A DNA stretch of 64,000 nucleotides from Enterobacteria phage T6: sequence record MH550421. One strand, 5' to 3'. Below, one piece after another: positions 1,797-12,075 of the stretch; the first letter of the stretch is position 1; each line of letters starts with the position of its first letter. The notes below the pieces were generated by a model. The model had not been told where the DNA came from and made no database searches. It saw only the letters and a list, made by a program, of their open reading frames with translations. The translations under genes were made by a program, and so were the position numbers.

Positions 1797-2812
1797 TGTG
1801 TTGCCTCTACATATAGCTGATTTGCATATTGAATAAGTGCTTCACGGTCAGAATCAGTGATGTCTGGAATTGCATTAATATACTCTTCCATTAATGTCTG
1901 AAGCGATTGAACTTCAACTTCTTCACTATCATCTGACTCGACAGAGTTATCAATCTTTGACACAACTCGTAATGAATGCACAACTTTCTCTAGTTCAGAT
2001 TCGAACTTCGTCAGATTTTTGTCTATTTCAGTTACTATAACACGTACTGATAGATTTGTAAAATCTTTATAGTCAATTTTTCCTTTAAATGGATAATGAA
2101 TTCTACGATGCCAGGTAGTATTGTTTGGAATAAATTCCATTCGTTCTGTTTCTGTATCAAACATCCAGAACCCACGAGGGTCATTCTCGTCACCGGCAGT
2201 TAGTGTCCATGGTGTCCCAATATATCTGACGTTAGCAGCCTCAGAAATAGTATGGAAGTGACCAGACCACACTTCTTTATAAGTCTTAAGGAAATCAGGT
2301 TCAAGACCGTGAGATTTCATTCCTTTATAAAAATAAAATCCATTCAATTCCCAGTGACCAACACAAAAAGAAGCAGATGAAGTTTTGATATGCTCAAGAA
2401 TTTCACCAGTATTTTCTTCGCACATCCAAGGAATTAAATCAATCAAACACCCGTCAAAATCTACTGTAGTAGGCTTATCATATACTTTAACATTAGGATA
2501 TTTAGCCAAAAGCTCAGTAGAGGCATTTGGAGTTAAAGTATTTTTAAAGTGCATATCATGGTTTCCTACAACAGTATGTAGGGTAATACCAGCATCATCA
2601 AGCATTTGAACTATTTCACGAGCAAACTCCATAGTTTTATGCGTGATTGCTTTTCGCACATCAAAAATATCGCCGTATTGAATCCAGGTAGTAATTCCAT
2701 TTTTCTTAGAATATTCTATCGCTTGCTTAATTCCATCCAGCTGAATGGATTGAACCCACTCATCATCGGCTTTAACGCCTAAATGCCAATCACCTAAATT
2801 TAAAATTTTCAT
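1793..2812 (-). CDS. 47: Recombination nuclease subunit gp47 (SbcD/Mre11-like)
   Basis: 339 aa; calcineurin-like phosphoesterase motifs LGDWHLG and VVGNHDMHF; length and sequence match T4 gp47 from memory. Confidence 0.92.
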   Translation of the reverse strand: MKILNLGDWHLGVKADDEWVQSIQLDGIKQAIEYSKKNGITTWIQYGDIFDVRKAITHKTMEFAREIVQMLDDAGITLHTVVGNHDMHFKNTLTPNASTELLAKYPNVKVYDKPTTVDFDGCLIDLIPWMCEENTGEILEHIKTSSASFCVGHWELNGFYFYKGMKSHGLEPDFLKTYKEVWSGHFHTISEAANVRYIGTPWTLTAGDENDPRGFWMFDTETERMEFIPNNTTWHRRIHYPFKGKIDYKDFTNLSVRVIVTEIDKNLTKFESELEKVVHSLRVVSKIDNSVESDDSEEVEVQSLQTLMEEYINAIPDITDSDREALIQYANQLYVEATQ

Positions 2813-2972
2813 ATATCAAGAACCGTCATTGAAATGCAAAATAAAATTATTGAAATAAATCCATCTAGAGTACTAAAGAACCCAATCCAACATGCTCTAG
2901 TGAATAGATAAAATGCAAGAAAAAGTATCACATATCCAAGAAATATCATTATATCAAACTCCGTATAAAGCT

Positions 2973-2990
2973 AAAGGGCCGAAGCCCTTT
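2973..2990 (-). terminator. GC hairpin with tetraloop (GGGC-UUCG-GCCC on the transcript) at the a-gt 3' end
   Basis: Inverted repeat aaagggccgaagcccttt overlapping the a-gt stop codon; only a weak U tract follows. Confidence 0.4.
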
Positions 2991-4191
2991 ATTTTGTAAT
3001 AATGTCAAACTGTTCTTTAAAGCAGAAGCTTGAATCTTGATGTTGATACAAAAATTCATATGCTTTTTCTCGCTCACGGTCATAAAGAGCTCGGTCAGAT
3101 GACAGTTCTTTAATACGTTCAAATGTTGATTCCATGTCATTTTCATCAAACCAAATGATACCGCTATCATGCGAGGTCAAAGGAGTATTATCAACACGGA
3201 ATTTTAAATTTTCGCCAGTAGATTTCCAAAATGCCGGAATTGTTCCACATGCACCAAGCTCGAGATGAGTATATTCGAGTGAGCGTTGTAAGTATTTCTG
3301 GTTAAGTTTACTCAACTGATATCCAAAGCCAGATTTACTCATTCGTTCAAGCATTTCACTATTAATATAACAATCTAGGATTTGTGCCGGTTGATTTGGC
3401 GCGAGATTCATTTTATCAATCTCACGATTACCGTAATATTCATACGGAATACCTTTTTCCTTAATTGCAATAAAAGCAGGGGAACGTTCAAGACCTTCCA
3501 TTACAGTGGATTTACCAGCAGGTTTTAAGAATTTTTCATGAAAATCAAACATCTGATAAAAACCTTTCCATGTAGTCGTACGACCAATCCAACGGTTGAT
3601 ATTCATGTTAATTTCAGAAACATCTTTCCAGTAGGTTGATCGAACCTTCGCAATATCCATAGGAGGCTGAAAGTTATATACTGTCGGTGCTTCTTCAATA
3701 TCATCAAACAGAGAAACAGTTTCTGGATACCATTCTTTCATCAGAACTTTATTAAAATCACCATTATCAGAATGGCTAAAAATAACATCAGCTCGACGAA
3801 CAGTTTCTTCTAATCCCAAATTTCGACGCAAAGAAAGAACAGAATGATCATGCTGATAAACTACAACACGAATAGAAGGTTTAATATTATCTAAAAGTTT
3901 TTTATAGTTATTAATCGTGGCTTCTTGAACGGAAGTAGCAGGAACAGAATTAATAATTAGAATATCACAATCATTAATCAGTTTAAGTGCTTTATCGTAT
4001 TCTTTAGCTAAAATAACTGGAATTGAAAATGATTTGTGGTCATGAGAACTTGTACGAGTAAATGATTTATCTTTAGCATAAACCAAAGTTACTTCATGAC
4101 CATTTTTAATAAACCAATCACGTTGCTCAAGAGAAAATTTAGTTACACCACAGCCTTCAAGACCTCGAGCCATAAAAATACATACTTTCAT
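2989..4191 (-). CDS. agt: DNA alpha-glucosyltransferase
   Basis: 400 aa; translation MKVCIFMARGLEGCGVTKFSLEQRDWFIKNGHEV... is near-identical to T4 alpha-glucosyltransferase as remembered. Confidence 0.95.
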   Translation of the reverse strand: MKVCIFMARGLEGCGVTKFSLEQRDWFIKNGHEVTLVYAKDKSFTRTSSHDHKSFSIPVILAKEYDKALKLINDCDILIINSVPATSVQEATINNYKKLLDNIKPSIRVVVYQHDHSVLSLRRNLGLEETVRRADVIFSHSDNGDFNKVLMKEWYPETVSLFDDIEEAPTVYNFQPPMDIAKVRSTYWKDVSEINMNINRWIGRTTTWKGFYQMFDFHEKFLKPAGKSTVMEGLERSPAFIAIKEKGIPYEYYGNREIDKMNLAPNQPAQILDCYINSEMLERMSKSGFGYQLSKLNQKYLQRSLEYTHLELGACGTIPAFWKSTGENLKFRVDNTPLTSHDSGIIWFDENDMESTFERIKELSSDRALYDREREKAYEFLYQHQDSSFCFKEQFDIITK

Positions 4192-4242
4192 TTAATATCC
4201 TCTTTGTTTTGGTTTATTTTACCAAAAATTTATAAAGCAATA

Positions 4243-4260
4243 TAGGAGCCGAAGCTCCTA
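4243..4260 (-). promoter_or_regulatory. RNA stem-loop (taggagc-cgaa-gctccta) upstream of a-gt
   Basis: Perfect 7-bp stem with tetraloop; partly U-rich downstream on the minus transcript. Confidence 0.35.
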
Positions 4261-4347
4261 TCCGCATAATACACCATATAGAGGCTCATTAGAGCTTCTA
4301 AATTTTATGCGCTTATATGTTATAGTTCCTTCTGCTTTAGCTTTATC

Positions 4348-4371
4348 ATGAGACTCTTTAAAGAGTCTCAT
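4348..4371. repeat. Perfect 24-bp palindrome atgagactcttt/aaagagtctcat
   Basis: Read directly; followed by a second inverted repeat ttcctc..gaggaa at 4374-4389. Confidence 0.7.
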
Positions 4372-4434
4372 CATTTCCTCTTTAGAGGAACGAATTTTAT
4401 TATAATCTATTTCAGAAGTCTGGATGTTCATCTT

Positions 4435-4638
4435 TCACAGTTGCCACCATTTTTTAACTTGATAAGAATCAACCCACACTTTCATATTAGGGTCTGCTCT
4501 TACAATAGGAGGATTAACTTCTTTAATTGAACTATCATGGTATTCTTTTTCAGAAATTTTCACACAAAGATGACCATTCAAAGATTCAGTAAATCCTGCA
4601 TTAATTTTAAGACGCTTGAATTTTACGTGTGTAAGCAT
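4435..4638 (-). CDS. Hypothetical small protein
   Basis: 67-68 aa ORF between a-gt and downstream ORFs; 32-nt overlap with the upstream ORF end. Confidence 0.35.
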   Translation of the reverse strand: MLTHVKFKRLKINAGFTESLNGHLCVKISEKEYHDSSIKEVNPPIVRADPNMKVWVDSYQVKKWWQL

Positions 4639-4924
4639 CAATCATATCCTCAATCTGCGATCTAGTAGTCTTCCAAAGAATACTGATGAGTTCATCGTTA
4701 TATGGCTGTTTTAGAATATCCCGACTTTTCTTGATAGCATATTCGTATTGAGCAAAATTATTATTTTCAGCTGCGATCTGAGCGTGCTTATAAAGACGAT
4801 TCAGTTCGCGTTTGTTTTTAGACAATAACTTATTTGCTTTTCTTTCTGCTTCAAGACGGTTCTTTTCTTCAATAGAAGAAATAAGCTTTTCCACTTCATC
4901 ATTAATTTCGGGTTTATCAGTCAT
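4607..4924 (-). CDS. Hypothetical protein, predicted coiled-coil
   Basis: 105 aa ORF, lysine/glutamate-rich helical sequence. Confidence 0.55.
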   Translation of the reverse strand: MTDKPEINDEVEKLISSIEEKNRLEAERKANKLLSKNKRELNRLYKHAQIAAENNNFAQYEYAIKKSRDILKQPYNDELISILWKTTRSQIEDMIDAYTRKIQAS

Positions 4925-6781: not shown

Positions 6782-7043
6782 TGTAAACTGATTTTTTCAA
6801 CTTTCTTACTTCACCACGTAATTGACGATTTAGCTCATCTTTAACTTCTGAATCAACACCTTTCATTCTACGCCATTTATCTGAGCGAAAAATGTTTTCA
6901 ACCATATCTTTATGACTTACACCGTCTGGAGCTTTACGCTTTCCGAAATAGTCATAATCACGCACTTTTAAGTCTTTACGACGATACGTTTTACCCATGG
7001 AGTTTAATTTCCTTAGCAACTGAACTAAATACAGCACGATCAC
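6705..7043 (-). CDS. Hypothetical basic protein
   Basis: 112 aa ORF, Arg/Lys-rich. Confidence 0.5.
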   Translation of the reverse strand: MIVLYLVQLLRKLNSMGKTYRRKDLKVRDYDYFGKRKAPDGVSHKDMVENIFRSDKWRRMKGVDSEVKDELNRQLRGEVRKLKKSVYIDDDFDYNTSQRVAKRKSNECYRYS

Positions 7044-7173
7044 AAATCATACGTTTATGTAACTTGAGTATAAGATAGTAAACATCAAAACCATTTACAT
7101 AAGTAACACGAACGACATTACCATTCACGAGATAATACTGTCCCTTTTTAATTTCTTTATCAATCATAACCAT
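6991..7173 (-). CDS. Hypothetical small protein
   Basis: 60 aa ORF directly downstream of the early promoter at 7204-7233. Confidence 0.4.
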   Translation of the reverse strand: MVMIDKEIKKGQYYLVNGNVVRVTYVNGFDVYYLILKLHKRMICDRAVFSSVAKEIKLHG

Positions 7174-7203
7174 ATCAATTCCTCAAAGGCAATTCATATG
7201 TTA

Positions 7204-7233
7204 ATAATACCATAGTTTGAACTTGTTGTAAAC
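7204..7233 (-). promoter_or_regulatory. T4-type early (sigma70) promoter
   Basis: Minus strand reads GTTTACA - 17 nt - TATTAT, preceded by the A/T-rich UP-like element aaaatatttttcacaaagttg. Confidence 0.6.
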
Positions 7234-7300
7234 AACTTTGTGAAAAATATTTTAGGGAATGATAAGAAAGGAACGATAGCTTAGAATGGTAATATACAGA

Positions 7301-7328
7301 ATGTGAGAAAGAAGGGCCCAGAGGGCCC
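7301..7328 (-). terminator. Intrinsic terminator (GGGCCC-UCUG-GGCCC hairpin plus U-rich tract)
   Basis: Inverted repeat gggcccagagggccc just downstream of the nrdH stop; the minus transcript follows with UUCUUUCUC. Confidence 0.6.
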
Positions 7329-7331
7329 GTC

Positions 7332-7640
7332 TTAATCTTCTATGATATCTCTATCATATCCAAGTGAAATGAGAGTTTCTTTGAAGTGTTTAATGTTCTT
7401 TTGTCTAGAATCATTAATGAAAATGACTGGATAACGAATGTTAAGAGATGTGAATCCAGCGCGTTTAGCAAGAGATACAATCAGCGGACGATCATACTCA
7501 ATCTTACCATTATTTGTAAGAACTTTATAGAAAGTAAAAGGAGCATTAAGCTCCTTTAGAAGTTTTGTAACTGATTGACATCCAGGACAACGACCTACTT
7601 CATCTGGAATTCCATAGACTTCAATCTTATTTTGTTTCAC
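7332..7640 (-). CDS. nrdH: Glutaredoxin-like protein NrdH
   Basis: 102 aa with CPGC redox motif; position upstream of nrdG as in T4. Confidence 0.8.
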   Translation of the reverse strand: MKQNKIEVYGIPDEVGRCPGCQSVTKLLKELNAPFTFYKVLTNNGKIEYDRPLIVSLAKRAGFTSLNIRYPVIFINDSRQKNIKHFKETLISLGYDRDIIED

Positions 7641-7642
7641 AA

Positions 7643-7855
7643 CTATTCCTTACTAAGAGCAGCATTCAGCTTGTTAGTAATTTTATCCAGACGCTCATTG
7701 AACTCACTAGAAGATAAGCCCTTTTCTGGAGAAATTAAACTAATCACGAAAAATATAGCAATAAATGGAATAAGGAAAATAGCTCCAACTGCCATAAATA
7801 GAAAGAATGTTACAGTTGTAAGAAAATCAGCTAAACCTTTACGAAATTTATACAT
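7643..7855 (-). CDS. Hypothetical small membrane protein
   Basis: 70 aa ORF with one long hydrophobic segment (FLTTVTFFLFMAVGAIFLIPFIAIFFVISLI). Confidence 0.5.
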   Translation of the reverse strand: MYKFRKGLADFLTTVTFFLFMAVGAIFLIPFIAIFFVISLISPEKGLSSSEFNERLDKITNKLNAALSKE

Positions 7856-7970
7856 ATTTTACCCTTAATTGATTAACCAAGCATTGATAATCACTAAACT
7901 ATACTGCGAATAAAATTCTGGACCAAAATGAAAAATCATATCATTTATAGTATCCATAATATAATTCAAT

Positions 7971-8441
7971 TTAATCATGTTTCCACACCCCATCGGTATT
8001 TGACCAAAGTCGCTGATTATCTGATCCTCGCCACAGCTTTTTAGTCGGAAGATTTTTCTCATACTTCCCATCAATAATAACATCAACATATTTAAGCATT
8101 TCTAGTTGTTTAATATCTTCAAACTTATATCCTGTCCACAACCAAATGCTTTTATTGGGATAAAGATTTTTTACTGTTTGAACAATGCAATGAATAACAT
8201 CTCGGTTATCAGGATAGAGAGGGTCTCCTCCAGTTATAGTTAATCCTTCTATATAATCATTATTCAAACATTCAATTAATTGTTCTAGTGTTTCACCAGT
8301 AAATGGAATACCATTTCTAGCATTCCATGTTGATTTATTATAACACCCTTCACATTTATGCAAACAACCTGTAACGAAAAGAACGGTCCTGCATCCAGGA
8401 CCATTAACAAAGCAGCACGGGTATATTCTGTCATAATTCAT
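7971..8441 (-). CDS. nrdG: Anaerobic ribonucleotide reductase activating protein NrdG (radical SAM)
   Basis: From the internal Met: MNYDRIYPCCFVNGPGCR..., radical-SAM Cys cluster CLHKCEGC; 156 aa as in T4. Confidence 0.88.
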   Translation of the reverse strand: MNYDRIYPCCFVNGPGCRTVLFVTGCLHKCEGCYNKSTWNARNGIPFTGETLEQLIECLNNDYIEGLTITGGDPLYPDNRDVIHCIVQTVKNLYPNKSIWLWTGYKFEDIKQLEMLKYVDVIIDGKYEKNLPTKKLWRGSDNQRLWSNTDGVWKHD

Positions 8442-9268
8442 AATAATATCCAATTTTTCCAAGCTTCATCAGTAGAATTACAGCGTTTTAGTATAAGATG
8501 TCTAGAAACTTTTATGGCATTTGAGCACTTTTTAATTGAATCATATTTAATACCGTCAACTGAAACGGTTTTGCTAGTTGGAGAAATTTTTCCATACATT
8601 GGATTTTTTGAACCAACTTGAAGTCCTTTTAAAGCTTTTGAAAGCTTTTGTCTAGATTCCAATGACATGGGAGAATTCTTTTTACCTTCAATAATTCGCT
8701 TGCGATGAAGTTCGCGTTCTTCTTCGCTCAAAGAATTGTAATATTTTTTAACACCGTTTGATATAGATAATTTATCTTTCTCAGACCGCTCTCCAACTAA
8801 TTTACTTCTAACATCTTTTCGCTTCATAGCTATGCTTACAGCTTTATTTAAATTTGCTTGATGCTCTGGCGTACGTTTATATTTCTTTAAAGCACGTGAA
8901 ATAGCTATTTTAGTTTTTTCTGTTTTCTTTTTACCTTTATTTGCTAAACTATTTTTGTGGCGATGTTCAAGTGTCTGTTCATAAGCAGTTCCACCTTTTC
9001 CACCAGGTTTAATATTATATGTATTTTCTTTTAGACAATACTCTTCGGTTACAAGTTCAGCTTCTTTATCATACATTTGTTTTTCATTATCAAAAACATG
9101 TAAAATTTCTTTATTAAAATTTTTTCTACCATATTTTAATAAAGAGGCACGAATCAATGTTCCTGACCCCATATAACCGTCATTTATGTTATCGGTGCTA
9201 TGCGCACCGATATATTCCTTTGAATTAATTATATTTGTTATTTTATAAATTATATAATACCTATGCAT
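8438..9268 (-). CDS. GIY-YIG homing endonuclease (seg-like), between nrdG and nrdD
   Basis: 276 aa; N-terminal YIIYKITNIINSKEYIGAHS (GIY-YIG module) and Lys-rich DNA-binding tail. Confidence 0.8.
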   Translation of the reverse strand: MHRYYIIYKITNIINSKEYIGAHSTDNINDGYMGSGTLIRASLLKYGRKNFNKEILHVFDNEKQMYDKEAELVTEEYCLKENTYNIKPGGKGGTAYEQTLEHRHKNSLANKGKKKTEKTKIAISRALKKYKRTPEHQANLNKAVSIAMKRKDVRSKLVGERSEKDKLSISNGVKKYYNSLSEEERELHRKRIIEGKKNSPMSLESRQKLSKALKGLQVGSKNPMYGKISPTSKTVSVDGIKYDSIKKCSNAIKVSRHLILKRCNSTDEAWKNWILL

Positions 9269-11078
9269 GTTTTACTCGTTTTACCATTTCTTTCATTTTA
9301 CCTAAATTCCATGGAACAACGCTAGGAGTTCCAAGATAGCCACATGTTCTTCTTATGGTATTCATCTTTTTAGGATCAGTTTCTCCACAAATAGAACAAA
9401 CAAATCCGTTTTCAGTAGGAGTCATTTCATGGGTACTTCCACATGTAAAACATTTATCTACTGGCATATTAACACCAAAATAATCTAAATGTTGTGCAGC
9501 ATAATCCCATACGGCCTCAAGACCTTTTAAGTTATTTTTCATATCAGGAAGTTCAACATAAGAAATGTGACCACCTGTCGCAATGAAATGATATGGCGCT
9601 TCACGAGAAATCTTTTCAAACGGAGTAATATTTTCTTCTACTGAAACGTGGAAACTGTTAGTGTACCAGCCTTTATCGGTAACATCCTTTACACTTCCAT
9701 ATTTTTCTGTATCGAGTTTACAGAAGCGATAGCAAAGGTTTTCAGCAGGAGTAGAATATAAACTAAAAGCAAATCCGGTTCTTTCAGTCCACTGTTTAAG
9801 ATGAGCATTCATTTTAGTTAAAATTTCTCGTCCAATATCACGACCGACAAGAATATTCAATTCGTGAATACCAATGTATCCTAAAGATACTGAACTTCTG
9901 CCGTTTTTAAATAACTCAATTATGTCGTCATCAGGTTTAAGACGAACCCCGAATGCACCTTCTTGGTAAAGAATAGGGGCAACAGTAGCTTTAACTCCTT
10001 TTAAAGAACTAATTCTACACATCAAAGCTTCAAAACACAAATCCATTCGTTCATTGAATAATTCAACAAATTTCTGTTCATTGAATTGTGTTCCAATATA
10101 AGAATCTAACGCGATGCGAGGAAGATTCAGTGTTACAACACCAAGATTATTACGTCCATCAAGAATTTCATTACCAGTCGAATCTTTCCATACGCTCAAG
10201 AAACTACGGCAACCCATTGGAGAAACAGGAACAGATGAACCAGTGATAGCTTTATTATTCTTAGCTGAAATAATATCAGGATACATCCTTTTGCTTGCAC
10301 ACTCTAGAGCAAGCTGCTTAATATCATAGTTCGGGTCGTCTTTATAAAGATTAACACCTTCTTCAACGAACATAACAAGCTTAGGGAAAATAGGAGTTAT
10401 CCCATCACGACCAAGACCTTTAATACGATTTTTCAGAATTGCTTTCTGAATCATTCGTTCAGTCCAGTCAGTTCCCGTACCAAATGTAATTGTTACAAAA
10501 GGCGTTTGTCCGTTTGAACTAAAGAGAGTATTTACTTCATATTCATAAGCTTGAAATGCATCGTATACGTCTTTTTCTGTTTTAGATTGGGCATAATTCA
10601 ACGCATCAGCGATTTGCCATTTTTCTGCATCCTCAATATGTTTTGCATAGGTACGTTTAACATAAGGAGAAAGTACTTTATCTACATTCGCAAAAGTCGT
10701 TCCGCCGTATTGGTGAGAAGCAACCTGTGCAGTAATTTGTGCCATAATCGCAGTAGCAACGCCAATTGATTTAGGAGTTTCAATCTGTGCATTACCTAGC
10801 TTAAATCCGTTCTCAAGCATTCCTTTTAAATCTACTAAACAGCAATTAGTAAATGGAAGAGCAGGGGAATAATCAATATCATGGAAATGAATAATTCCGC
10901 TTTCATGCGCTTTCATAATAAAAGACGGGACCATATTTTTGGCAATGTGTTTAGACACAATACCAGCCATAAGGTCCCGTTGAGTTGGAAAAACACGAGA
11001 ATCTTTATTAGCATTCTCGTTTAAAAGGTCTTTATTAGTTTTATGAATCAATCCTTCAATTTCTTTTTCAATTGTCAT
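9261..11078 (-). CDS. nrdD: Anaerobic ribonucleoside-triphosphate reductase NrdD (continuous, intron-less)
   Basis: 605 aa continuous ORF; C-terminal glycyl-radical motif RTCGYLG and Zn ribbon CFTCGS...CSICG. Confidence 0.95.
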   Translation of the reverse strand: MTIEKEIEGLIHKTNKDLLNENANKDSRVFPTQRDLMAGIVSKHIAKNMVPSFIMKAHESGIIHFHDIDYSPALPFTNCCLVDLKGMLENGFKLGNAQIETPKSIGVATAIMAQITAQVASHQYGGTTFANVDKVLSPYVKRTYAKHIEDAEKWQIADALNYAQSKTEKDVYDAFQAYEYEVNTLFSSNGQTPFVTITFGTGTDWTERMIQKAILKNRIKGLGRDGITPIFPKLVMFVEEGVNLYKDDPNYDIKQLALECASKRMYPDIISAKNNKAITGSSVPVSPMGCRSFLSVWKDSTGNEILDGRNNLGVVTLNLPRIALDSYIGTQFNEQKFVELFNERMDLCFEALMCRISSLKGVKATVAPILYQEGAFGVRLKPDDDIIELFKNGRSSVSLGYIGIHELNILVGRDIGREILTKMNAHLKQWTERTGFAFSLYSTPAENLCYRFCKLDTEKYGSVKDVTDKGWYTNSFHVSVEENITPFEKISREAPYHFIATGGHISYVELPDMKNNLKGLEAVWDYAAQHLDYFGVNMPVDKCFTCGSTHEMTPTENGFVCSICGETDPKKMNTIRRTCGYLGTPSVVPWNLGKMKEMVKRVKHA

Positions 11079-11548
11079 TTTAAACTCTTTCTAAGCTGCT
11101 TCTTAAATGAAGCTATTAACTGTGTTTTGGTGTCAGATTCATTATATTCAAATCCTCTTTGAAGCATCTCGGCCATCATTTCCTCTTTTCCTAAACGAGA
11201 AAATTCCTTTGATTTATCTCCAACAAAGTTAGGGTGAATATTATTTTGGGTGTAATCGGATTTTAAGTAAGTAAGTAAATTTTCTAACCATTCAAGATAA
11301 TCAACACCTTGTCCCTTTAAGCCAGAACGATTAAATTTGTGCTTCATTTGACCTTCTGCAGCATTACAGAGATTACAAAGCAATCCACGTACCTTTCCTG
11401 CTTTTGGTCCATTTAATTCATGGTCATGATCAAGATGATTAGCTTGAACATCAGGATTTAGTTCTCGTTGGCAAATTAAGCATTTACCGTTTTGTGCATT
11501 ATAAAATTTTTGTTTTTCTTCTTTGTATAATTTGCCAGTCAATAACAT
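11075..11548 (-). CDS. 49: Endonuclease VII (Holliday junction resolvase) gp49
   Basis: 157 aa; MLLTGKLYKEEKQKFYNAQNGKCLICQRELNPDVQANHLDHDHELNGPKAG... matches T4 endo VII from memory. Confidence 0.95.
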   Translation of the reverse strand: MLLTGKLYKEEKQKFYNAQNGKCLICQRELNPDVQANHLDHDHELNGPKAGKVRGLLCNLCNAAEGQMKHKFNRSGLKGQGVDYLEWLENLLTYLKSDYTQNNIHPNFVGDKSKEFSRLGKEEMMAEMLQRGFEYNESDTKTQLIASFKKQLRKSLK

Positions 11549-11589
11549 AATAAACCCTTACCTTAAATAGATAAGGGTATTTATTATTT

Positions 11590-12075
11590 TCAAGTATTGT
11601 AAAACATTTGATGCAATCGCTTATATTGCCGAATCTTTTGGTCAGAAAAAGAAATTTGAGTTTCAAGCCATTCAATGTACTCTGCAGCAGCTTGCATTAA
11701 ATTTCCTTCATAGCCATCGTTATTTTCTTGTGCAGCTAATTTAGCTAATGCGTATGAAATACGTTCACCTTGAAAATCGGCTTTAGGCTTCTGAACAACT
11801 TGATTAGTTCGCTCTACAACTTCTTCAATTTCGCCATTTTCGACTGATTCAGTATTCCACAAACACCAATACGTAATTGGCTTATCGTAGATGTTAATAA
11901 TCTTTCCATCAGAAAGTTCAATTTCAATAATTCCAGTATCAGGTTCTATATCATCTTCACATTCTTTTGCAAGTTCACGAACCTTAAAGACAGTACCTGC
12001 ACTAAGTTCCGGCCAGTAATTACACAGCCCTGTATCAGCACGATTAATTCTAAACCACTTATCTACTGTAATCAT
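11590..12075 (-). CDS. pin: Probable Pin (protease inhibitor) homolog
   Basis: 161 aa from the internal Met; positional equivalent of T4 pin downstream of gene 49; sequence identity not verified. Confidence 0.6.
   Translation of the reverse strand: MITVDKWFRINRADTGLCNYWPELSAGTVFKVRELAKECEDDIEPDTGIIEIELSDGKIINIYDKPITYWCLWNTESVENGEIEEVVERTNQVVQKPKADFQGERISYALAKLAAQENNDGYEGNLMQAAAEYIEWLETQISFSDQKIRQYKRLHQMFYNT

What the first reader, a model, noticed from the sequence alone, without database searches (positions are those of the whole stretch)
8438..11078. GIY-YIG endonuclease at the nrdG/nrdD junction next to an intron-less nrdD
T4 carries the HNH gene mobC at this junction and a group I intron with I-TevIII inside nrdD, as I recall. 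Here a GIY-YIG gene occupies the junction and nrdD is one continuous 605-aa ORF. That is a different solution at a known mobile-element hotspot.
Basis: partly seen in the sequence, partly recalled or inferred. Interest (0 to 1): 0.45.

Follow-up and report, generated by a model that had tools for sequence, protein, structure and literature searches.

The report
Known SegH homing endonuclease of T6
The window is phage T6, and the gene wedged between nrdD and nrdG is segH, a selfish free-standing homing endonuclease named and tested in T6 itself in 2005, so the finding is correct but already known.

Summary
On the minus strand, a 276-aa GIY-YIG ORF (8438-9268) lies between an uninterrupted 605-aa nrdD (9261-11078) and nrdG (7971-8441). 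It overlaps nrdD by 8 nt and nrdG by ATGA.

The window is phage T6 (100% identity). GenBank AY262137.2 (phage T6) already annotates this 831-nt gene as segH, with one amino-acid difference. [quoted passage not shown]

T6 nrdD has no intron. No Rfam match reached E<=1, whereas the T4 control scored 105 bits. The protein is colinear with spliced T4 NrdD. One recall error: the T4 nrdD intron encodes I-TevII, not I-TevIII.

New detail here:
- The mobile unit is a cassette: the last ~75 nt of nrdD, segH, and the first ~30-100 nt of nrdG.
- It has crossed genera. In Moonvirus KM16 the cassette is 87-96% identical to T6, against 68-69% for the flanking genes.
- It decays: PD112 carries an 80-aa deletion remnant.
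- It shares the junction with two HNH genes and a majority of empty sites.

Novelty: already known. Interest is low.

The parts
8438..9268 (-). segH, a free-standing GIY-YIG homing endonuclease gene: 831 nt, 276 aa, stop codon included
   Evidence: ORF and sequence. It differs by 1 aa (T231S) from SegH ABI48947.1 of T6 record AY262137.2. The same gene is annotated segH in PP01. PHROG 314 matches at 6e-58.
8990..9268 (-). GIY-YIG catalytic domain, residues about 1-93
   Evidence: The motif is IIY6-8 ... YIG19-21. Glu69 and Glu71 are present, and Asn85 is invariant in the alignment with I-TevI, I-TevII and SegA-G. Identity to SegB is 53% over 90 aa.
8585..8671 (-). NUMOD3 DNA-binding motif in the linker, residues 200-228
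   Evidence: Pfam PF07460 scores 26.6 bits against a cut-off of 20.4.
8450..8593 (-). C-terminal DNA-binding domain resembling the I-TevI helix-turn-helix domain, residues 226-273
   Evidence: Pfam PF20987 scores 21.3 bits against a cut-off of 27, E 2.5e-4. blastp to the I-TevI C-terminus covers residues 224-276 at E 0.003.
9261..11078 (-). nrdD, the anaerobic ribonucleotide reductase large subunit: uninterrupted, 605 aa
   Evidence: Pfam NRDD matches at 1.3e-171. No group I intron is found. The protein is colinear with spliced T4 NrdD.
10540..10541 (-). Empty homolog of the T4 nrdD intron insertion site, after nrdD nt 538. This is the intron-less allele.
   Evidence: The T4 exon junction was mapped onto T6. 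The 60 nt downstream are identical to intron-less SV76. T4 has 7 changes at +8 to +37, none altering the protein.
9261..9335 (-). segH-linked variant 3' end of nrdD. The last ~75 nt differ, changing 11 of the last 22 residues.
   Evidence: The last 60 nt are 56% identical to empty-site SV76 and 50% to T4. They are 100% identical in the segH+ phages PP01 and FL23. The last 70 nt are 95.7% identical in KM16, where the nrdD body is 69%.
7971..8441 (-). nrdG, the radical-SAM activase, 156 aa. Its ATG overlaps the segH stop as ATGA.
   Evidence: AY262137.2 gives the same start.
8384..8430 (-). segH-linked variant 5' block of nrdG, nt 12-58. It includes the NrdG substitutions D10C and V19T. The invariably linked core is nt 12-30.
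   Evidence: There are 13 differences from the empty-site alleles within nt 12-56, and about 100% identity after that. The block at nt 12-30 is shared by T6, PP01, FL23 and UFV-AREG1. nrdG nt 1-60 is 86.7% identical in KM16, against 67.6% for the rest of nrdG.

Best explanation
This is segH of bacteriophage T6, a free-standing GIY-YIG homing endonuclease gene inserted exactly between nrdD and nrdG.

Shown here:
- The gene is intact and co-oriented with the operon.
- It has no late-promoter consensus of its own.
- Its ATG lies 8 nt inside the end of nrdD, and its stop overlaps the nrdG start.

Inferred: segH is transcribed on the nrdD-nrdG message and translated at a low level by coupling or re-initiation.

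The protein resembles I-TevI in layout. It has an N-terminal GIY-YIG nuclease, a NUMOD3-containing linker and a C-terminal helix-turn-helix DNA-binding domain.

Mechanism (from the literature on SegH and other Seg enzymes, plus inference): in a mixed infection, SegH cuts the nrdD/nrdG junction region of a co-infecting T-even genome. The break is repaired by recombination-dependent replication using the segH+ genome as template. segH is thereby copied in, together with the flanking DNA.

The comparative data here show what travels together: the last ~75 nt of nrdD (a different NrdD C-terminal tail), segH, and the first ~30-100 nt of nrdG (NrdG D10C). I infer that the target lies within roughly -80 to +60 of the junction.

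The neighbouring nrdD simply lacks the independent mobile group I intron (the I-TevII intron) that T4 carries. The two elements assort independently.
For: Identity:
- Window 7300-11600 is 100% identical to T6 genomes AP018814 and NC_054907.
- T6 record AY262137.2 annotates nrdD, segH (831 nt) and nrdG with the same overlaps. Its protein differs at 1 residue.
- Sister deposits AY262138 (RB3) and AY262139 (LZ2) also carry segH.

Mobility signatures:
- Distribution is patchy. About 70 of ~700 closely related records carry segH, 32 carry mobC and 32 carry another HNH gene. In a spread sample of records, most of the rest have an empty junction where nrdD and nrdG overlap by ATGA.
- The flanking blocks are linked to segH in segH+ phages.
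- Moonvirus KM16 has the cassette at 87-96% identity, embedded in nrdD/nrdG that are 68-69% identical.
- PD112 has a decayed copy.
- A 47%-identical homolog sits right after nrdD in Pseudotevenvirus JC03.

Expression:
- There is no TATAAATA in 7200-11700.
- There is no significant RNA structure at the segH start, z +1.07.

Independence from the intron:
- RPN226, fPS-2 and EC128 have both segH and the T4-type intron.
- FL23 has segH plus a divergent intron.
Against: - The primary paper (Sandegren et al. 2005) is not in the held library. Its biochemical results are taken from its title, from citing papers and from my recollection of the abstract: cleavage activity, homing in crosses, and cleavage of both segH+ and segH- DNA.
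- The exact cleavage site is not known to me. It cannot be derived from sequence.
- The flank divergence could reflect the ancestry of the donor lineage rather than target-site immunity.
- The Pfam and TIGRFAM GIY-YIG profiles score below their curated cut-offs.
- No counterpart of I-TevI Arg27 can be aligned.
- phmmer against PDB sequences did not retrieve I-TevI.
Confidence: 0.95

Rival explanations
1. The ORF is a domesticated or inactive relic of a homing endonuclease. On this view it no longer cuts DNA and persists only because it is wedged into the nrdD-nrdG operon.
For: The GIY-YIG profile scores are below their cut-offs, and no Arg27 equivalent can be aligned. Decay does occur at this site: PD112 retains only an 80-aa remnant. 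From my recollection of the 2005 abstract, SegH also cleaves segH+ DNA, which is atypical.
Against: The 276-aa ORF is full length and conserved at 91-100% nt identity in about 70 records. The Tyr, Glu and Asn positions are conserved. The cassette has recently crossed genera. The 2005 paper reports endonuclease activity, as shown by its title and by the citing review.
Confidence: 0.04
2. The gene is a displaced copy of segD, as annotated in the RB3, RB5, RB6, RB7, RB9 and RB10 genome records, or of another T4 seg gene, and not a separate family member.
For: The RB3-group records label it 'segD'. SegD is the best full-length T4 match.
Against: Identity to T4 SegD is only 31% over 263 aa. No T4 Seg protein exceeds 53%, even in the catalytic domain. 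The original RB3 deposit AY262138 calls it segH.
Confidence: 0.01
3. The endonuclease is carried by a cryptic self-splicing element, either an intron or an intein at the end of nrdD, and is not free-standing.
For: The 3' tail of nrdD is replaced and the ORFs overlap, so the endonuclease abuts coding sequence on both sides.
Against: A sensitive Rfam scan finds no group I intron, or any other family, at E<=1 apart from a 22-bit chance hit. nrdD and nrdG are complete ORFs of normal length, 605 and 156 aa. The segH frame differs from both.
Confidence: 0.005

Closest known systems
SegH of phages T6, RB3 and LZ2 (GenBank AY262137-9; Sandegren, Nord & Sjöberg 2005, NAR 33:6203)
   Same: It is the same gene in the same phage. 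Length is 831 nt, the overlaps with nrdD and nrdG are the same, and 275 of 276 residues are identical.
   Different: There is one substitution (T231S) relative to the 2005 T6 deposit.
MobC of phage T4 (HNH free-standing endonuclease)
   Same: It occupies the same nrdD/nrdG junction, in the same orientation and within the operon.
   Different: MobC has an unrelated HNH nuclease domain. It starts with the first 7 codons of nrdG and ends 11 nt inside nrdG. It keeps the common NrdD tail. In T4 it is associated with a highly divergent nrdG segment at nt 100-300.
T4 SegA-SegG (free-standing GIY-YIG endonucleases)
   Same: The catalytic domain is of the same type, with the Seg-specific YMGSG and GGxGG motifs. 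The N-terminal ~90-135 residues are 43-53% identical to SegA, SegB, SegC and SegE, and SegD is 31% identical over the full length.
   Different: The locus and presumably the target differ. SegH is longer (276 aa against 140-224) and has a NUMOD3-rich linker. Only SegD shares the C-terminal domain.
I-TevI (td intron) and I-TevII (nrdD intron) of T4
   Same: The modular layout is shared: a GIY-YIG nuclease, a linker and a C-terminal DNA-binding domain resembling the I-TevI helix-turn-helix domain. I-TevII also targets nrdD.
   Different: Those enzymes are intron-encoded, whereas SegH is free-standing. T6 lacks the I-TevII intron altogether. Sequence identity is about 30% and local only.
MobC-like HNH endonuclease of UFV-AREG1 and Yersinia phage PST
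   Same: It occupies the same junction, and the nrdG that follows it has the same T6-type 5' allele.
   Different: It has an HNH nuclease, 38% identical to MobC over the HNH region. It is 279 aa and begins with 13 duplicated nrdG codons. It keeps the common NrdD tail.

Membership tests
SegH (named free-standing homing endonuclease of T6, RB3 and LZ2) | Sequence identity to the deposited SegH protein | tested here: met
   275 of 276 residues are identical to ABI48947.1 from T6 record AY262137.2. The PP01 SegH differs at 5 residues.
SegH (named free-standing homing endonuclease of T6, RB3 and LZ2) | Located between nrdD and nrdG, in the place of T4 mobC | tested here: met
SegH (named free-standing homing endonuclease of T6, RB3 and LZ2) | Site-specific cleavage close to its own locus, and homing in mixed infections | not testable with these tools
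   This is reported in Sandegren et al. 2005, known here from the paper's title, from citing papers and from my recollection of the abstract. The paper is not held.
GIY-YIG nuclease superfamily | GIY-X10/11-YIG motif at the N-terminus | tested here: met
   The motif reads I6-I7-Y8, then 10 residues, then Y19-I20-G21. Y8, Y19 and G21 are nearly invariant in the alignment with I-TevI, I-TevII and SegA-G.
GIY-YIG nuclease superfamily | Catalytic Glu (I-TevI E75) and Asn (I-TevI N90) | tested here: met
   Asn85 is invariant in all 10 sequences. Glu69 and Glu71 lie in the KEAELV motif 14-16 residues upstream, matching the 15-residue E75-N90 spacing in I-TevI. Which of the two Glu residues is the equivalent remains uncertain by 1-2 columns.
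GIY-YIG nuclease superfamily | Conserved catalytic Arg (I-TevI R27) | tested here: inconclusive
   I-TevI R27 falls in a segment that is gapped in all Seg proteins in the MAFFT alignment. SegH R40 is not conserved among the Seg proteins.
GIY-YIG nuclease superfamily | Curated profile match above threshold | tested here: inconclusive
   TIGR01453 scores 45.2 bits against a cut-off of 56.05. PF19835 scores 18.7 against 25. PHROG 314 matches at 6e-58 but has no curated threshold. phmmer against PDB sequences finds no I-TevI.
Mobile homing-endonuclease gene (population signatures) | Presence/absence polymorphism among near-identical genomes, with precise empty sites | tested here: met
   About 70 of ~700 records carry segH. 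The empty sites have nrdD and nrdG overlapping by ATGA, with a span 823 nt shorter.
Mobile homing-endonuclease gene (population signatures) | The element and its immediate flanks are more similar between distant genomes than the surrounding genes (horizontal transfer with co-conversion) | tested here: met
   T6 against KM16: the nrdD tail is 95.7% identical, segH 91.5% and nrdG nt 1-60 86.7%. The nrdD body is 69% and the rest of nrdG 67.6%.
Group I intron in nrdD (T4 sunY/nrdD intron with I-TevII) | Group I catalytic core interrupting nrdD after nt 538 | tested here: not met
   There is no RF00028 hit at E<=1. The controls score 105.3 bits for T4 and 71.4 bits for FL23. The ORF is continuous and colinear with the T4 exons.

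The most novel reading that the evidence does not exclude
The segH cassette may be more than a selfish gene. It always carries a rewritten NrdD C-terminal tail, with 11 of the 22 residues just after the glycyl-radical motif changed. It also carries an NrdG N-terminus with Asp10 changed to Cys, next to the VNGPG motif.

The same nrdG 5' allele follows the unrelated UFV-AREG1/PST-type HNH endonuclease. This allele could therefore be a shared resistance allele against two or more competing endonucleases at this hotspot. Alternatively, the tail and N-terminus could be a co-adapted reductase/activase interface that is exchanged as a unit between phage genera.

Neither idea is, to my knowledge, addressed in the papers I could read.
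Probability: 0.2. Interest if true: 0.35.

Novelty: already known. Interest (0 to 1): 0.08.

Why it matters
As a discovery it does not matter. The gene, its position, its replacement of mobC and its endonuclease activity were published for phage T6 itself in 2005.

It has some value as curation:
- The current T6 RefSeq record starts the endonuclease CDS at Met33, which removes the GIY-YIG motif.
- The same record starts nrdG at codon 27, which removes the first Cys of the radical-SAM CX3CX2C motif.
- Six RB-series genome records mislabel the gene as segD.

It is also a clean example of the homing-endonuclease life cycle at one hotspot:
- empty sites;
- three different endonucleases;
- an independently assorting intron;
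- transfer of the cassette between genera;
- a decayed remnant.

Tried and rejected
- I could not read the primary SegH paper. The PMC id, DOI and PubMed id are all absent from the held library. Eight citing papers were checked. Only PMC2988022 and the 2022 bioRxiv preprint say anything about segH in their text. The mapped cleavage site therefore could not be recovered.
- phmmer of SegH against PDB sequences gave only a chance hit to a penicillin-binding protein and no I-TevI.
- IMG/VR held no close SegH relative. The best segment identity was 53%, and that match covers only the GIY-YIG domain, so it was not used.
- I looked for a promoter specific to the endonuclease. There is no T4 late consensus TATAAATA in 7200-11700. 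Sigma-70-like matches number 10, fewer than the 19.9 expected from shuffles.
- I looked for an RNA structure occluding the segH start and found none, z +1.07.
- The Rfam 'gathering' mode missed the genuine FL23 intron. The permissive mode found it. The T6 negative result therefore rests on the permissive scan and on colinearity.
- I did not run the large protein searches or a structure prediction. Identity was already settled by the T6 GenBank record.
Full report
**What is there**

The genes in window 7300-11600 all lie on the minus strand. In order of transcription they are:
- gene 49, endonuclease VII (11075-11548);
- nrdD (9261-11078, 605 aa);
- a 276-aa ORF (8438-9268);
- nrdG (ATG at 8441, ending at 7971, 156 aa);
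- two small ORFs;
- nrdH (7332-7640).

Pfam confirms NrdD (1.3e-171, plus the glycyl-radical domain), NrdG (Fer4_12 and Radical_SAM), endonuclease VII and a glutaredoxin. The sequence shows the 276-aa ORF starting at ATG 9268-9266, 8 nt before the end of nrdD (ATGCATAG). It ends in a TGA that overlaps the nrdG ATG as ATGA.

**Which genome, and is the gene known**

The stretch is 100% identical to the two complete phage T6 genomes, AP018814 and NC_054907. Searching with the ORF alone finds 72 phage records, 70 of them full length at 91-100% nt identity. Among them are three short records:
- AY262137.2 (phage T6);
- AY262138.2 (RB3);
- AY262139.2 (LZ2).

All three annotate 'segH: SegH'. The T6 record reads 'NrdD partial; SegH (segH) complete; NrdG partial'. 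Its segH is at 1501-2331, which is 831 nt, with an 8-nt overlap with nrdD and a 4-nt overlap with nrdG. The protein differs from the window's at a single residue, T231S. PP01, F2, SYGD1 and KM16 also use the name SegH.

[quoted passage not shown] It is not in the held library. Two held papers summarise it:
- The Edgell, Gibb and Belfort review lists mobC at nrdG/nrdD. [quoted passage not shown] The finding is thus a rediscovery of a named and experimentally characterised gene, in the same phage where it was described.

**The intron claim**

T4 does have mobC (HNH) between nrdD and nrdG, and a group I intron in nrdD. That intron's endonuclease is I-TevII (GIY-YIG). I-TevIII is the defective HNH gene of the nrdB intron.

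T6 nrdD is intron-less by two tests:
1. A permissive Rfam scan of 7000-12000 gives no group I match at E<=1. The same scan gives 105.3 bits on T4 and 71.4 bits on the divergent FL23 intron. The default 'gathering' mode missed FL23, so the permissive scan is the relevant one.
2. T6 nrdD aligns end to end with the T4 exons. The T4 intron is 1033 nt and sits after nrdD nt 538, which corresponds to window 10541/10540. The two proteins are both 605 aa and differ at 12 positions.

Downstream of the empty site, T6 is identical over 60 nt to intron-less SV76, a T2-type phage. T4 carries 7 changes at +8 to +37 that do not alter the protein. T6 therefore has the ordinary intron-less allele.

**What kind of protein**

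- The N-terminus carries IIY(6-8)-X10-YIG(19-21).
- In an alignment with I-TevI, I-TevII and SegA-G, Ser35 and Asn85 are invariant. Tyr8, Tyr19, Gly21 and the GGxGG motif are nearly invariant.
- The N-terminal ~90-135 residues are 43-53% identical to SegA, SegB, SegC and SegE.
- The best full-length T4 relative is SegD, at 31% over 263 aa, which probably explains the 'segD' label in the RB3-group genomes.
- NUMOD3 (residues 200-228) is above the Pfam cut-off. The I-TevI DNA-binding domain (226-273) is just below its cut-off.
- TIGR01453 'group I intron endonuclease' matches at 1.1e-11, below its cut-off. PHROG 314 'homing endonuclease' matches at 6e-58.
- An equivalent of I-TevI Arg27 could not be aligned.

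SegH is therefore a distinct member of the Seg group, with a modular layout like that of I-TevI.

**How it most likely works**

Shown here:
- The gene is intact and co-oriented with the operon.
- It has no T4 late-promoter consensus nearby.
- It has no significant RNA structure at its start.
- It overlaps both neighbours.

Inferred: expression comes from the nrdD-nrdG transcript, by low-level translational coupling. The review describes the same arrangement for several T4 free-standing endonucleases.

Mechanism (from the literature on Seg enzymes): a double-strand break in a co-infecting genome near the junction is repaired from the segH+ genome. This copies in segH and the flanking DNA.

**Comparative evidence gathered here**

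1. *Occupancy of the junction.* About 700 records share the nrdD-nrdG region at >=90% identity.
   - About 70 carry segH.
   - 32 carry T4-type mobC.
   - 32 carry a second HNH gene of the UFV-AREG1/PST type.
   - In a spread sample of 60 of the 981 matching records, most of the rest are empty. Their nrdD and nrdG overlap by ATGA, and the span is 823 nt shorter.
2. *Linked flanks.* The segH+ phages examined (T6, PP01, FL23) share a variant nrdD 3' end. Its last 60 nt are about 56% identical to empty-site alleles, and 11 of the last 22 residues are changed, starting just after the RRTCGYLG glycyl-radical motif. They also share a variant nrdG 5' block at nt 12-30, extending variably to nt 58 and giving NrdG D10C and V19T. 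The two groups are near-identical beyond these blocks.
3. *Transfer between genera.* In Salmonella Moonvirus KM16 the cassette is far more similar to T6 than the genes around it.

| Region (T6 vs KM16) | Identity |
|---|---|
| nrdD body | 69% |
| nrdD tail | 95.7% |
| segH | 91.5% |
| nrdG nt 1-60 | 86.7% |
| rest of nrdG | 67.6% |

4. *Decay.* PD112 keeps the flanks but has an in-frame 588-nt deletion. This leaves an unannotated 80-aa remnant.
5. *A distant relative.* A 47%-identical full-length homolog lies immediately after nrdD in Cronobacter phage JC03, a Pseudotevenvirus.

I infer that the SegH target lies within roughly -80 to +60 of the nrdD/nrdG junction. I cannot say which flank is cut.

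**Independence of segH and the intron**

RPN226, fPS-2 and EC128 carry both segH and the T4-type intron. FL23 and FL44 carry segH together with an intron at the same site. In FL23, the one examined, the intron is divergent: 66% nt identity, with an I-TevII homolog at 56% aa identity. 'Endonuclease at the junction, no intron' is thus one of several combinations already present in databases.

**Verdict**

Novelty is 'already known' and interest is low.

The residual points of interest are evolutionary detail and annotation errors. One such detail is that the nrdG 5' allele is shared by the segH and UFV-AREG1-type cassettes. On annotation, the T6 RefSeq record starts the endonuclease at Met33 and nrdG at codon 27 (compared).

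Noticed in passing
window 8438-9268 and 7971-8441 (L001 = NC_054907.1): The T6 RefSeq/AP018814 annotation truncates both genes. The endonuclease CDS starts at Met33 (244 aa), which removes the GIY-YIG motif. nrdG starts at codon 27, a TTG (130 aa), which removes Cys26 of the CX3CX2C radical-SAM motif. The 'similar to' notes in that record are also scrambled; for example, nrdG is noted as 'tail sheath monomer'.
   Followed up: yes
KM606994-KM606999 and NC_025419 (phages RB3, RB5, RB6, RB7, RB9, RB10): These genome records label the nrdD/nrdG-junction endonuclease 'segD'. It is segH: 98.9% nt identity to T6 segH, and only 31% aa identity to T4 SegD. The original RB3 deposit AY262138 calls it segH.
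   Followed up: yes
L007 (UFV-AREG1, NC_031030.2) 1577-2416; 32 records, including Yersinia phage PST: A third endonuclease occupies the same junction. It is a 279-aa HNH protein, 38% identical to MobC over the HNH region. Its first 13 codons duplicate the empty-site-type nrdG start (MNYDRFYPCDFVN). The nrdG that follows it has the T6/segH-type 5' allele (98% identity over nt 1-60), but its nrdD tail is the common type. This suggests either a shared resistant nrdG allele or succession of endonucleases at one site.
   Followed up: partly
L002 (T4) 2447-3539: T4 MobC begins with the first 7 codons of nrdG (MNYDRIY) and ends 11 nt inside nrdG. T4 nrdG nt 100-300 is only 43-72% identical to every other allele examined, while nt 300-471 are 97-100% identical. 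This is a foreign patch next to mobC.
   Followed up: partly
L030 (vB_vPM_PD112, NC_054928.1) about 1493-1735: This is an unannotated segH remnant. An in-frame 588-nt deletion removes residues ~47-242 and leaves an 80-aa ORF. The segH-type nrdD tail and nrdG 5' block are retained. It is an example of homing-endonuclease decay after fixation.
   Followed up: yes
L031 (Salmonella phage KM16, Moonvirus) 720-1730: The segH cassette is 87-96% identical to T6, inside nrdD/nrdG that are only 68-69% identical. This points to recent transfer of the cassette, including its flanks, between genera.
   Followed up: yes
L004 (FL23, PP400787.1) 3659-4783: FL23 nrdD holds a 1049-nt insertion at the T4 intron site. 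FL44 shows the same split match but was not fetched. The FL23 insertion is only 66% identical to the T4 intron and encodes an I-TevII homolog at 56% aa identity. RF00028 scores 71.4 bits with permissive filters, but Rfam's default 'gathering' filters missed it. This divergent intron co-occurs with segH.
   Followed up: partly
L012 (Cronobacter phage JC03) 2459-3310: A 283-aa protein, 47% identical to SegH over its full length, lies directly downstream of a 703-aa nrdD. Four small ORFs separate it from nrdG. The SegH lineage appears to be associated with the nrdD 3' flank across T4-like genera.
   Followed up: partly
window 9260-9268, compared with the nrdD 3' ends of empty-site phages (L006, L008): The 9-mer ATGCATAGG forms the segH start in T6 (Met-His-Arg). 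The same 9-mer encodes NrdD Met599-His600-Arg601 about 18 nt from the stop in empty-site phages and T4. It may be a trace of how the cassette's left junction arose, or it may be chance.
   Followed up: no
window 8382-8405 (minus strand, nrdG nt 37-60): There is a 10-bp hairpin, AAUGGUCCUG-GAUG-CAGGACCGUU, followed by CUUUUCG. The T6-specific changes at nrdG nt 42, 55 and 56 make the stem perfect, whereas SV76 has a G-U pair there. FL23 breaks one pair. Folding of a 101-nt context gives z = -1.58, which is not significant.
   Followed up: partly
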